Translations under genes and position numbers: made by a program
The notes under the pieces: generated by a model
The model's input: the letters and a program-made list of their open reading frames with translations, nothing else
Told to the model about the DNA's origin: nothing
Databases searched by the model: none
Shown here: positions 32,566 through 33,021 of the stretch, piece by piece
How positions within the stretch are numbered: position 1 is the stretch's first letter
Layout: the number at the start of each line of letters is the position of its first letter
Assembly: GCA_964359655.1 (NCBI GenBank)
Contig: CAYHVI010000002.1
Location: forward strand, 176-64,175
Source: an uncultured Candidatus Saccharibacteria bacterium
Lineage (GTDB): Bacteria; Patescibacteriota; Minisyncoccia; Minisyncoccales; UBA10102
Direction of reading: 5' to 3'
Length of the DNA: 64,000 bases

Positions 32566-32581
32566 ATTGTACTAGTACGAT
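32566..32581. promoter_or_regulatory. TrpR-type operator O2 (ATTGTACTAGTACGAT)
   Basis: 15/16 palindrome with a GTACTAGTAC core. Lies upstream of the 107-aa ORF and contains a TACAAT -10-like hexamer. Confidence 0.6.
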
Positions 32582-32608
32582 ATGTATCCAAAAATATGAG
32601 GTGTTCTT

Positions 32609-32920
32609 TTACAATCTATCTAAAACTTTTTGAAATCCCCCTTCTTTGTCGAGCAATTCGCGAGAACCTCGGGTAATTGTGGCAACGCTCACCCCAAGGT
32701 CTTTTGCAATTTTTCGCTGCGACTCCTCTTTCCCAAGGCGTTTTACAATTTGCCAGCGCAGCCCAAGTTCTTTGTATTCTGCAGGAGTAAGAATATCCAG
32801 AAAAAACTCTTTGAGCAATCCCCTGTCGCCCGCGATTTTGCGAATTATTTCAAAAAGCTCATTTGCATACTGTTCGGTTAATTCTTTCTTTTGCCTCGAT
32901 TGTTTCCTTCCAGTAGTCAT
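32609..32920 (-). CDS. Trp repressor family protein (TrpR/YerC-like), 103 aa
   Basis: LTPAEYKELGLRWQIVKRL..ESQRKIAKDLGVSVATITRGSRELL matches the TrpR HTH signature (E. coli ...[24 protein letters not shown]). Confidence 0.8.
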   Translation of the reverse strand: MTTGRKQSRQKKELTEQYANELFEIIRKIAGDRGLLKEFFLDILTPAEYKELGLRWQIVKRLGKEESQRKIAKDLGVSVATITRGSRELLDKEGGFQKVLDRL

Positions 32921-32934
32921 CGTACTAGTACGAT
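32919..32934. promoter_or_regulatory. TrpR-type operator O1 (perfect 16-bp palindrome ATCGTACTAGTACGAT) overlapping the -10, TSS and ATG of the repressor gene
   Basis: Seen directly. The promoter is TTGACA (32954-32959), 18 nt, TATCGT. The ATG at 32920 lies inside the palindrome. Confidence 0.7.
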
Positions 32935-33021
32935 ATCATTTGCAAGCAGTTGTTGTCAAGCGGGGTGTCTGTGGAAAAATCAAAAGGCGTAGTTGTAGAT
33001 AACTACGCCTTTCTCGAAGTG

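What the first reader, a model, noticed from the sequence alone, without database searches (positions are those of the whole stretch)
32566..32959. TrpR-family repressor with two CGTACTAGTACG operators, one covering its own -10, TSS and ATG
ORF 32609..32920 carries the TrpR HTH signature (...VATITRGSRELL). A perfect 16-bp palindrome ATCGTACTAGTACGAT (32919-32934) overlaps the -10 (TATCGT) and the start codon. This implies autoregulation of a leaderless mRNA. A 15/16 copy, ATTGTACTAGTACGAT (32566-32581), sits in front of the unknown 107-aa ORF (32140..32463). The GTACTAGT core is the same as in E. coli trp operators, but here a single CTAG-centred palindrome is used. The regulon member is not a recognisable trp or aro gene.
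Basis: partly seen in the sequence, partly recalled or inferred. Interest (0 to 1): 0.6.

Follow-up and report, generated by a model that had tools for sequence, protein, structure and literature searches.

The report
Tryptophan repressor locus in a Patescibacterium
A tiny groundwater bacterium of the Candidate Phyla Radiation carries an E. coli-type tryptophan repressor gene. Its DNA binding site covers the gene's own promoter and start codon, and a second copy guards a downstream small gene of unknown function that seems to answer to tryptophan supply.

Summary

- **Repressor.** ORF 32609..32920(-) is a TrpR-family protein (Pfam E 2e-21). Its recognition helix and most corepressor-pocket residues match E. 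coli TrpR.
- **Sites.** The two palindromes are the only such sites in 64 kb. They score 29.9 and 28.9 bits; the next best place scores 7.9.
- **Source.** The window is from a Patescibacteria (CPR) groundwater genome.
- **Conservation.** In 78 related loci, TrpR boxes are about 96-fold enriched just upstream of trpR. Seven close relatives share site 1's geometry: TTGACA, a 17-18 nt spacer, TGaTAnnGT, then a start codon 1 nt after GTACTAGTAC. This supports a leaderless, autoregulated gene.
- **Site 2.** Five close relatives also carry site 2 just after trpR. There it precedes a leader peptide with tandem Trp codons, a terminator/antiterminator, a conserved covarying RNA hairpin absent from Rfam, and then a gene. 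The window has lost the Trp codons and terminator but keeps the hairpin.
- **The 107-aa ORF.** It is not an orphan. It belongs to a six-member family with no Pfam, NCBIfam or PDB-fold match. In other Patescibacteria the same slot holds trpE/G, trpD-like and trpB-like genes.

Verdict: a new variant of a known kind, of moderate interest. Binding and start sites are untested.

The parts
32982..33013 (-). Intrinsic terminator that insulates the trpR promoter from upstream transcription
   Evidence: 13-pair stem followed by a T run, immediately upstream of the -35.
32954..32959 (-). -35 hexamer TTGACA of the trpR promoter
   Evidence: TTGAC(A/G) sits at the same distance from the box (21-22 nt) in L004, L025, L084, L085, L086, L088 and L093.
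32930..32938 (-). Extended -10, TG-a-TATCGT; its last four bases are the first four of the palindrome
   Evidence: Relatives have TGATAGTGT, TGATAGCGT or TGATATCGT in the same position.
32919..32934 (.). Operator 1, ATCGTACTAGTACGAT (core GTACTAGTAC 32922-32931). It spans from inside the -10 to the first two bases of the trpR ATG.
   Evidence: 29.9 bits. The core and its register to the start codon are conserved in seven relatives.
32609..32920 (-). trpR: 103-aa TrpR-family repressor, probably translated from a leaderless or at most 3-nt-leader mRNA
   Evidence: PF01371 E 2.4e-21. Aligns to E. coli TrpR residues 37-88. 110 homologues; every hit that carries a source name is from Patescibacteria. 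Only one Met in the ORF.
32566..32581 (.). Operator 2, ATTGTACTAGTACGAT (core 32569-32578), 28 nt after the trpR stop codon
   Evidence: 28.9 bits. The equivalent site lies 10-60 nt after the trpR stop in L084, L085, L086, L088 and L093. No terminator lies between trpR and this site.
32463..32567 (-). 34-codon ORF (MNIDVHRIQEFVLKGAHFLRKTRSQIAQNIERGV) that starts 1 nt after operator 2. Probably a remnant leader ORF with no Trp codon.
   Evidence: In L084 the ATG in the same register opens MYIHHNQSITIPVYRRKNKTTWWWVLQK. In L085 it opens a 13-codon ORF without Trp. The peptide is not conserved, since L088 has a stop in that frame.
32480..32540 (-). Conserved RNA hairpin in the 5' UTR of the 107-aa ORF (two helices, 23 pairs)
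   Evidence: Covariance model R1 scores it 61.9 bits and finds no other copy in the window. In 15 sequences, 89% of cells pair against 38-48% in slid registers, and 14 of 23 pairs show compensatory changes. No Rfam family.
32470..32476 (-). Shine-Dalgarno-like AAAGGGG, 6 nt before the ATG of the 107-aa ORF
   Evidence: Relatives have GGAGG or AGGAGG at this place. The minimum-energy fold pairs it with the 5' end of the leader (z -3.3).
32140..32463 (-). 107-aa protein of unknown function; five Trp residues, all invariant in the family; motifs WGxHCxW(x0-1)PPxW and FWIxDxG
   Evidence: Full HMMER search found P0112-P0115 (E 6e-8 to 2.5e-5), and the profile search added P0117. Alignment. The AF2 model has pLDDT 78 and pTM 0.70. 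No PDB fold match. No Pfam or NCBIfam match.
32084..32141 (-). Two hairpins after the 107-aa ORF: AAAGTTCGTgcaaACGAACTTT, then GGGGTGAGAcaaatTCTCGCCCC followed by TTTCTATT. Likely end of the transcription unit.
   Evidence: Read. The scan lists the first hairpin on the + strand only. The second was not listed by the scan, so it rests on the sequence alone.

Best explanation
This is a tryptophan-sensing repressor locus of a Patescibacteria (CPR) genome.

- **Repressor.** The 103-aa protein is a TrpR-family repressor. When loaded with L-tryptophan it should bind CTAG-centred GTACTAGTAC boxes, as E. coli TrpR does.
- **Operator 1.** It fills the space between the -10 hexamer and the start codon of trpR. 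Binding there should stop RNA polymerase from initiating, so the repressor limits its own synthesis. The mRNA begins at or within about 3 nt of the AUG and is translated without a Shine-Dalgarno sequence.
- **Downstream unit.** No terminator follows trpR. The same transcript probably continues into the downstream unit: a 34-codon remnant leader ORF, a conserved RNA hairpin, a Shine-Dalgarno sequence and the 107-aa ORF.
- **Operator 2.** It sits 28 nt after the trpR stop and adds a second tryptophan-dependent block on that unit. It acts either as a roadblock or by occluding a weak internal promoter. The 107-aa protein would therefore be made only when tryptophan is scarce.
- **Stoichiometry.** Each site has one perfect CTAG box flanked by nTAn 8 bp away on either side. 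It is probably occupied by two repressor dimers in tandem that share the central box.

Shown by sequence: family membership, the sites, their rarity, and their conservation in position and register. Inferred: tryptophan as the ligand, binding, stoichiometry, the transcription start, co-transcription, and the role of the 107-aa protein.
For: Family and residues:
- PF01371 at E 2.4e-21.
- Against E. coli TrpR, S67 Q68 R69, V79 (E. coli I79), A80, T81, T83, R84 and G85 line up, as do pocket residues T44 and R54. R55, T81, R84 and G85 are invariant in 30 CPR homologues.

Sites:
- These are the only two in 64 kb.

Conservation:
- Strict TrpR-box patterns occur at 6.5 per kb in -120..+15 of trpR against 0.068 per kb elsewhere in 78 loci. 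39 loci carry at least one.
- Seven close relatives share TTGAC(A/G), 21-22 nt, GTACTAGTAC, 1 nt, ATG or GTG.
- Five share operator 2 just after the trpR stop.

Leaderless start:
- The ORF has a single Met, and there is no purine-rich stretch before the ATG.
- Only 7 of 41 long ORFs in the window have a Shine-Dalgarno core.
- 6 of 30 long ORFs have a strong -10 hexamer 4-9 nt before the ATG, against 2.9% of all ATGs.

Tryptophan link:
- trpR directly follows trpS in 29 of 33 upstream genes tested; one of these was confirmed as trpS with TIGR00233 (283.6 bits against a cut-off of 176.75).
- Leader peptides with WW or WWW codons plus terminators follow trpR in relatives.
- TrpE, TrpE-G, TrpD-like and TrpB-like genes follow trpR in other lineages.
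- Homologues of the 107-aa ORF sit behind the same Trp attenuator and hairpin, and in L091 and L093 directly behind trpR.
Against: - No binding, ligand or transcript data exist.
- The protein scores below NCBI's TrpR equivalog cut-off (54.5 against 67.25).
- Pocket residue S88 of E. coli is Glu here, and this Glu is invariant in the CPR clade.
- The distance from the -10 to the ATG is 9 nt. The other leaderless-type genes in the window mostly have 6, so a 1-3 nt leader is as likely as none.
- Operator 2 has no recognisable -35, so its mode of action is open.
- The boxes flanking each site are only nTAn, so tandem binding is a guess from E. coli.
- Only 64 kb of the genome is visible, so the regulon may be larger.
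Confidence: 0.75

Rival explanations
1. Same repressor and sites, but operator 2 is not a roadblock within a trpR transcript. Instead it is part of a separate weak promoter. That promoter starts a second leaderless transcript at the ATG 32567, which carries the hairpin and the 107-aa ORF.
For: - On the minus strand both sites read ATATCGTACTAGTAC(G/A)ATGA, so the TATCGT hexamer and an ATG in the same register are duplicated.
- In L084 the ATG abutting operator 2 opens the WWW leader peptide in frame.
- A TATATT or AATATT element follows operator 2 in four relatives and the window.
Against: - No -35 or TG extension precedes site 2, and the promoter scan does not list it.
- L004 and L091 have no second operator, and there the leader peptide follows trpR directly. 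Co-transcription from the trpR promoter therefore works in relatives.
Confidence: 0.35
2. The protein is a TrpR-like paralogue that binds these boxes but responds to another ligand, or to none, as proposed for YerC/YecD-type proteins. The locus would then not report tryptophan.
For: - It scores below the TIGR01321 cut-off, and there is a weaker hit to TIGR02531 YerC/YecD.
- S88 is replaced by Glu.
- The target gene has no known link to tryptophan.
Against: - The YerC/YecD score is lower and also below its cut-off (32.9 against 42.2).
- R54, R84, T44, T81 and G85 are kept.
- The family is tied to trpS, to Trp-codon leader peptides and to trpE, trpD-like and trpB-like genes.
Confidence: 0.12
3. 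The 34-codon ORF after operator 2 encodes a working small protein or leader peptide that controls the 107-aa ORF by translational coupling (TAATG overlap).
For: - Its ATG is in the leaderless register, and its stop overlaps the next ATG.
- The predicted fold pairs the 5' part of this ORF with the Shine-Dalgarno and ATG of the 107-aa ORF (z -3.3). A ribosome reading it could therefore open that helix.
Against: - The peptide is not conserved. L085 stops after 13 codons, L088 has a stop in the frame, and the loop length differs by a non-multiple of three, while the hairpin it runs through covaries as RNA.
- It has no Trp codon.
Confidence: 0.15
4. The palindromes are chance repeats or sites for an unrelated factor, for example a restriction-modification or transposon element.
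For: The 14-mer TCGTACTAGTACGA occurs at many unrelated places in the metagenome collection, some as 42-nt tandem repeats. None of the 80 places examined lies near a TrpR gene.
Against:
- Within the window, and within 78 trpR loci, the box is rare and tied to trpR in position and register.
Confidence: 0.02

Closest known systems
Escherichia coli TrpR and its operators (trpEDCBA, aroH, trpR)
   Same: - Same protein family, with a near-identical recognition helix.
- Same ACTAG/CTAG box.
- The operator overlaps the promoter of the repressor's own gene, giving negative autoregulation.
- Relatives of this locus even carry E. coli-like 18-bp sites such as ACTAGTGAACTAGTAC and GTACTATTGCAATAGTAC.
- Dual control by repressor and Trp-codon attenuator in relatives matches the E. 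coli trp operon as summarised in PMC7755916.
   Different: - Here each site has one perfect CTAG-centred palindrome with only nTAn 8 bp to either side, rather than two or three CTAG boxes.
- The operator reaches the start codon of a leaderless gene.
- The controlled gene is not a trp, aro or transport gene.
- Residue 88 is Glu.
- The score is below NCBI's equivalog cut-off.
Chlamydia trachomatis trpRBA operon
   Same: trpR is the first gene of the unit and is repressed at its own promoter. An intergenic region between trpR and the downstream genes carries a second layer of control (PMC7755916).
   Different: - The second layer here is a second TrpR operator, plus a Trp attenuator in relatives, not the iron repressor YtgR.
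- The downstream gene is an uncharacterised 107-aa protein, not trpBA.
Tandem 2:1 complex of E. coli TrpR on a 16-bp palindrome with a central operator half-site (Lawson and Carey 1993; PDB 1TRR, recalled from memory, not checked here)
   Same: A 16-bp palindrome centred on one CTAG box, which in that crystal is bound by two dimers side by side. The natural sites here have that layout. 1trr_A is among the best sequence matches.
   Different: That DNA was synthetic. Whether the CPR protein binds 2:1 is untested, and I could not verify the exact crystal DNA sequence with these tools.
Ribosome-mediated trp attenuator (TrpL type)
   Same: Relatives carry a short ORF with WW or WWW, a 1:2 hairpin, an antiterminator and a terminator between trpR and the downstream gene.
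   Different: - The window itself has neither Trp codons nor a terminator in its leader.
- In CPR the attenuator is followed by an extra conserved hairpin that has no Rfam counterpart.

Membership tests
TrpR family (Pfam PF01371) | Sequence match above the curated cut-off | tested here: met
   76 bits against a cut-off of 27, E 2.4e-21, covering residues 20-103.
TrpR equivalog (NCBIfam TIGR01321, trp operon repressor) | Score at or above the equivalog cut-off | tested here: not met
   54.5 bits against a cut-off of 67.25. It is the best NCBIfam hit but does not qualify as an equivalog.
TrpR (E. coli type) | Helix-turn-helix residues that contact DNA (Q68, R69, I79, A80, T81, T83, R84) | tested here: met
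   The alignment gives SQR...VATITRGS against SQR...IATITRGS; only I79 changes, to V. R69, T81 and R84 are invariant in 30 CPR homologues.
TrpR (E. coli type) | Corepressor pocket for L-tryptophan (T44, R54, T81, R84, G85, S88; residue roles from my own knowledge of the E. coli structures) | tested here: inconclusive
   T44, R54, T81, R84 and G85 are kept. S88 is Glu, invariant in the clade. Ligand binding itself cannot be tested here.
TrpR (E. coli type) | Operators made of CTAG (ACTAG) boxes overlapping the regulated promoter | tested here: met
   GTACTAGTAC lies between the -10 and the ATG of trpR. The boxes are about 96-fold enriched upstream of trpR in 78 loci.
TrpR (E. coli type) | Two or more CTAG boxes spaced 8 bp apart | tested here: inconclusive
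   There is one perfect box. The positions 8 bp to either side hold ATAT or ATGA, i.e. nTAn/nTGn. Other CPR lineages do have two full boxes.
TrpR (E. coli type) | Tryptophan-dependent DNA binding | not testable with these tools
   Needs purified protein.
YerC/YecD TrpR-related proteins (NCBIfam TIGR02531) | Score at or above the cut-off | tested here: not met
   32.9 bits against a cut-off of 42.2.
Ribosome-mediated trp attenuator | Short ORF with consecutive Trp codons | tested here: not met
   There is no TGG between 32567 and 32463 on the minus strand. Relatives L084, L086, L088, L091, L092, L093, L004, L023, L041, L049, L050 and L052 do have them.
Ribosome-mediated trp attenuator | Intrinsic terminator with a competing antiterminator between leader ORF and gene | tested here: not met
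   No terminator-like site lies between 32609 and 32463. Relatives have one.
Leaderless mRNA | -10 hexamer a few nt before the start codon, with no Shine-Dalgarno | tested here: met
   TATCGT ends 9 nt before the ATG, and the operator fills the gap. The same geometry holds in seven relatives.
Leaderless mRNA | Mapped 5' end at the start codon | not testable with these tools
   No transcript data are available.

The most novel reading that the evidence does not exclude
The interesting object may be what operator 2 guards rather than the repressor. Across Patescibacteria, trpR is followed by a leader made of a Trp-codon attenuator plus a covarying hairpin that no RNA family describes. That leader drives trpE/G, trpD-like or trpB-like genes in some lineages. 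In this lineage it drives a Trp-rich 107-aa protein with no detectable fold relative. On the most novel reading, the hairpin is a new class of cis-regulatory RNA in tryptophan control. The 107-aa family would then be a tryptophan-starvation effector that took the place of the biosynthetic genes in a bacterium that depends on others for amino acids.
Probability: 0.3. Interest if true: 0.7.

Novelty: new variant of a known kind. Interest (0 to 1): 0.5.

Why it matters
- **Gene regulation in Patescibacteria is almost unstudied.** Searches of the paper library found nothing on TrpR or Trp attenuators in this group. This locus offers a repressor with a predictable ligand and a defined 16-bp site.
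- **A natural test of an old question.** It could show whether TrpR can work from a single CTAG-centred palindrome by tandem binding.
- **Leads on tryptophan handling.** It points to a small protein family and an RNA hairpin that answer to tryptophan supply in organisms thought to obtain their amino acids from hosts. These may be leads to how such cells sense or scavenge tryptophan.
- **Phyletic reach.** It shows that the E. coli pairing of repressor and attenuator extends far outside Proteobacteria.

Tried and rejected
- **Metagenome scan for TCGTACTAGTACGA.** It returned 80 loci. tblastn and a TrpR profile found no TrpR gene in any of them.
- **First search for homologues of the 107-aa ORF.** It found only the ORF itself, which suggested an orphan. 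The full HMMER search overturned this.
- **80-aa ORF in the same slot of L086.** It looked similar by eye (ERWGGYWILP against RDWGRHCNWLIPP), but BLASTP gives E 4.3, so homology is not claimed.
- **Rfam.** No family matches any part of the leader, in the window or in 19 related loci.
- **DAHP synthase as a regulon member.** There is no TrpR box near its promoter.
- **trpS as a regulated gene.** Only 1 of 29 trpS upstream regions has a good box. The trpS-trpR link is therefore synteny, not shown control.
- **Hairpin register.** My first dot-bracket string for the 15-sequence alignment was off by two columns. The slid control exposed this, and the corrected string was used.
- **Fixed operator spacing.** A fixed helical phase between the two operators is not supported: centre-to-centre distances are 343-385 bp.

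Full report
**What is there**

The two palindromes are exactly as described. ATCGTACTAGTACGAT lies at 32919-32934 and is a perfect 16-bp palindrome. ATTGTACTAGTACGAT lies at 32566-32581 and matches 15 of 16. The core GTACTAGTAC, allowing one mismatch, occurs nowhere else in the 64 kb (expected 0.24). A weight matrix built from 14 sites, the window's own two included, scores them 29.9 and 28.9 bits. The next best position in the window scores 7.9.

ORF 32609..32920 on the minus strand encodes 103 aa. It matches Pfam Trp_repressor at E 2.4e-21.

**Whose genome**

The protein has 110 homologues, and every one that carries a source name comes from Patescibacteria (Yanofskybacteria, Paceibacterota, Parcubacteria, Peregrinibacteria). 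The identical gene occurs on contigs from the Hainich groundwater well H51. The neighbours in the window are ordinary chromosomal genes: YceG, peptide deformylase, TrmD, KhpA, RNase III and DnaE.

**Is it a real TrpR?**

Aligned to E. coli TrpR, the recognition helix is almost identical: SQR...VATITRGS against SQR...IATITRGS. Pocket residues T44, R54, T81, R84 and G85 are kept, while S88 is Glu. R55 (E. coli R54), R69, T81, R84, G85 and E88 are invariant in 30 CPR homologues.

NCBI's TrpR equivalog model is the best hit but falls below its cut-off (54.5 against 67.25). The YerC/YecD model scores lower still. I therefore file the protein in the TrpR family and treat it as working like TrpR. I do not call it an equivalog.

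**Are the palindromes its operators?**

I fetched 80 loci encoding relatives. In the 78 with a usable start codon, strict TrpR-box patterns occur at 6.5 per kb in the 135 nt around the trpR start. Elsewhere they occur at 0.068 per kb. 39 loci have at least one, and more have variant cores such as CATACTAGTATG.

Some lineages use E. coli-like 18-bp sites with two boxes, for example GTACTATTGCAATAGTAC and ACTAGTGAACTAGTAC. Others, including this one, use a palindrome centred on a single CTAG.

**Promoter and leaderless start**

On the minus strand the sequence reads TTGACA, 18 nt, TG-a-TATCGT, ACTAGTACG, ATG. A terminator lies just upstream at 33013..32982.

Seven close relatives (L004, L025, L084, L085, L086, L088, L093) keep the same layout: TTGAC(A/G), then 21-22 nt ending in TGATA(G/T)(T/C), then GTACTAGTAC, then one base, then ATG or GTG.

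Several points support a leaderless start:
- The ORF has a single Met.
- There is no room for a Shine-Dalgarno sequence.
- Only 7 of 41 long ORFs in the window have a Shine-Dalgarno core.
- 6 of 30 long ORFs have a strong -10 hexamer 4-9 nt before the ATG, against 2.9% of all ATGs. Leaderless genes therefore seem common in this genome.

The gap here is 9 nt rather than the usual 6, so a leader of 1-3 nt is as likely as none.

**The second site and what it guards**

Operator 2 starts 28 nt after the trpR stop, with no terminator between. Five close relatives have a site in the same place.

In those relatives, the site is followed by:
- a short ORF with tandem Trp codons (for example MYIHHNQSITIPVYRRKNKTTWWWVLQK in L084 and MIMTAQQRKSRMTWWWVLSFFGKAQL in L093);
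- an antiterminator segment;
- an intrinsic terminator;
- a long hairpin;
- a Shine-Dalgarno sequence;
- a gene.

More distant lineages show the same order without operator 2.

The window has no Trp codon and no terminator in its leader. Operator 2 is followed by an ATG in the leaderless register, a 34-codon ORF, the hairpin (32540..32480), AAAGGGG, and the 107-aa ORF. The 34-codon ORF is not conserved as a peptide. I read it as a remnant of the leader ORF.

**The hairpin**

A covariance model built from seven sequences finds the hairpin once in the window. It also finds it, on the trpR strand, 100-450 nt after trpR in at least eight further loci.

In a 15-sequence alignment:
- 89% of cells pair, against 38-48% in slid registers;
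- 14 of 23 pairs show compensatory changes;
- no shuffle of 500 reaches the observed values.

Plus-strand scores exceed minus-strand scores, which fits an RNA rather than a DNA element. Rfam has no matching family. Its role is unexplained.

In many relatives a copy of its 5' basal arm (GYGCTGG) and a GTTCTTT motif follow it. This hints at alternative pairing. In the window, the predicted fold pairs the 5' leader with the Shine-Dalgarno and ATG of the 107-aa ORF (z -3.3).

**The 107-aa ORF**

The word-indexed search found only the ORF itself. The full HMMER search found four relatives at E 6e-8 to 2.5e-5, and a profile search added one more.

All five Trp residues are invariant in the family. 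The motifs are WGxHCxW(x0-1)PPxW and FWIxDxG.

The genes encoding these relatives sit behind the same Trp attenuator and hairpin. In L091 and L093 they lie directly behind trpR.

With six sequences, AF2 gives pLDDT 78 and pTM 0.70: three helices and a short hairpin. Foldseek finds no PDB relative. There is no Pfam or NCBIfam match.

In other lineages the same slot holds:
- TrpE (L018);
- a TrpE-TrpG fusion (L050);
- a TrpD-like glycosyl transferase family 3 protein (L008);
- TrpB-like PALP enzymes (L015, L079);
- a stand-alone ThrRS-editing-like domain (L004, L006).

The 107-aa protein therefore sits where tryptophan supply genes sit elsewhere, and its relatives are wired to be made when tryptophan is short. 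Its function remains unknown.

**Mechanism proposed**

With tryptophan bound, the repressor occupies operator 1 and blocks initiation at its own promoter. It also occupies operator 2 and blocks expression of the downstream unit, either as a roadblock or at a weak internal promoter.

Each site is probably bound by two dimers in tandem around the shared central CTAG. This follows the tandem complex of E. coli TrpR on a 16-bp palindrome (my recollection of Lawson and Carey 1993; not checked here). When tryptophan falls, both genes are expressed.

The steps shown are family, sites, rarity and conservation. Ligand, binding, stoichiometry, start site and co-transcription are inferred.

**Comparison and novelty**

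The repressor-operator pair and its autoregulation are the E. coli pattern. The operon order, with trpR first and a regulated intergenic region, recalls Chlamydia trachomatis trpRBA (PMC7755916).

The differences are:
- the single CTAG-centred site fused to a leaderless start;
- the second TrpR site in the intergenic region;
- the extra hairpin;
- a target with no known function.

The paper library holds nothing on TrpR or Trp attenuation in Patescibacteria. I rate it a new variant of a known kind, interest 0.5.

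Noticed in passing
window 33467-34507 (-): A type I-beta DAHP synthase with an N-terminal ferredoxin-like domain (NF006421, 487 bits) has 63% G+C. The window as a whole has 44% and the flanks 40-45%. This looks like a recent horizontal acquisition placed 550 nt upstream of trpR. No TrpR box lies near it. In L007 a native-GC DAHP synthase of another subtype also sits directly upstream of trpR.
   Followed up: partly
window 34520-34548 (-): A perfect inverted repeat, CGCTAGAGA-11 nt-TCTCTAGCG, encloses a TATAAT-like hexamer just before the Shine-Dalgarno of the DAHP synthase. 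It may be an operator for another regulator. It does not fit the TrpR box.
   Followed up: no
window 33022-33399 (-): Between the DAHP synthase and trpR lies a promoter (TTGACA-16-TATACT). It is followed by a 13-codon ORF (MLWLCMSPRPFRL) and a terminator (33245..33229). Next come a strong Shine-Dalgarno (GGAGAGGGGG), a 53-aa Cys-containing ORF (33022..33183) with no family match, and a second terminator.
   Followed up: partly
window 32480-32540 (-); L004, L008, L023, L041, L045, L049, L050, L052, L086, L088, L090-L093: A conserved, covarying RNA hairpin follows the trp leader or terminator and precedes the Shine-Dalgarno of the gene downstream of trpR across diverse Patescibacteria. Rfam 15 has no such family. 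Relatives also carry a downstream copy of its 5' arm and a GTTCTTT motif.
   Followed up: partly
L004, L023, L041, L049, L050, L052, L055, L058, L060, L084, L086, L088, L091-L093: Leader peptides with WW or WWW codons, plus 1:2 / 2:3 / terminator structures, follow trpR in Patescibacteria. This is the E. coli pairing of repression and attenuation in a very distant phylum. L023 also has two sub-threshold Phe_leader matches.
   Followed up: partly
29 of the loci L007-L083 (e.g. L009 2052-3005): trpR lies directly downstream of tryptophan-tRNA ligase (trpS), often overlapping it by 11-17 nt. The regions upstream of trpS mostly lack TrpR boxes.
   Followed up: partly
L004 3582-3980; L006 3864-4280: A stand-alone homologue of the archaeal threonyl-tRNA synthetase editing domain (PF08915) occupies the slot downstream of trpR and the trp leader in two lineages.
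   Followed up: no
window 7869, 22034, 42122, 54638 and other gene starts: Few genes in the window have a Shine-Dalgarno core (7 of 41). Several have a TATAAT-like hexamer exactly 6 nt before the ATG, so leaderless translation looks common in this genome.
   Followed up: partly
window 35513-36080 (+); 31261-31488 (-): A HicA toxin gene follows an ORF with no Pfam match in the antitoxin position. Separately, a 75-aa stand-alone Lrp/AsnC ligand-binding domain sits behind a perfect consensus promoter (31546..31518). The stretch 30-40 kb is crowded with small ORFs.
   Followed up: no
L100, L115, L129, L141, L149, L151, L153, L171 (metagenome loci): The 14-mer TCGTACTAGTACGA recurs in tandem arrays with a period of about 42 nt in unrelated metagenome contigs. 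No TrpR gene is nearby, and their nature is unknown.
   Followed up: no
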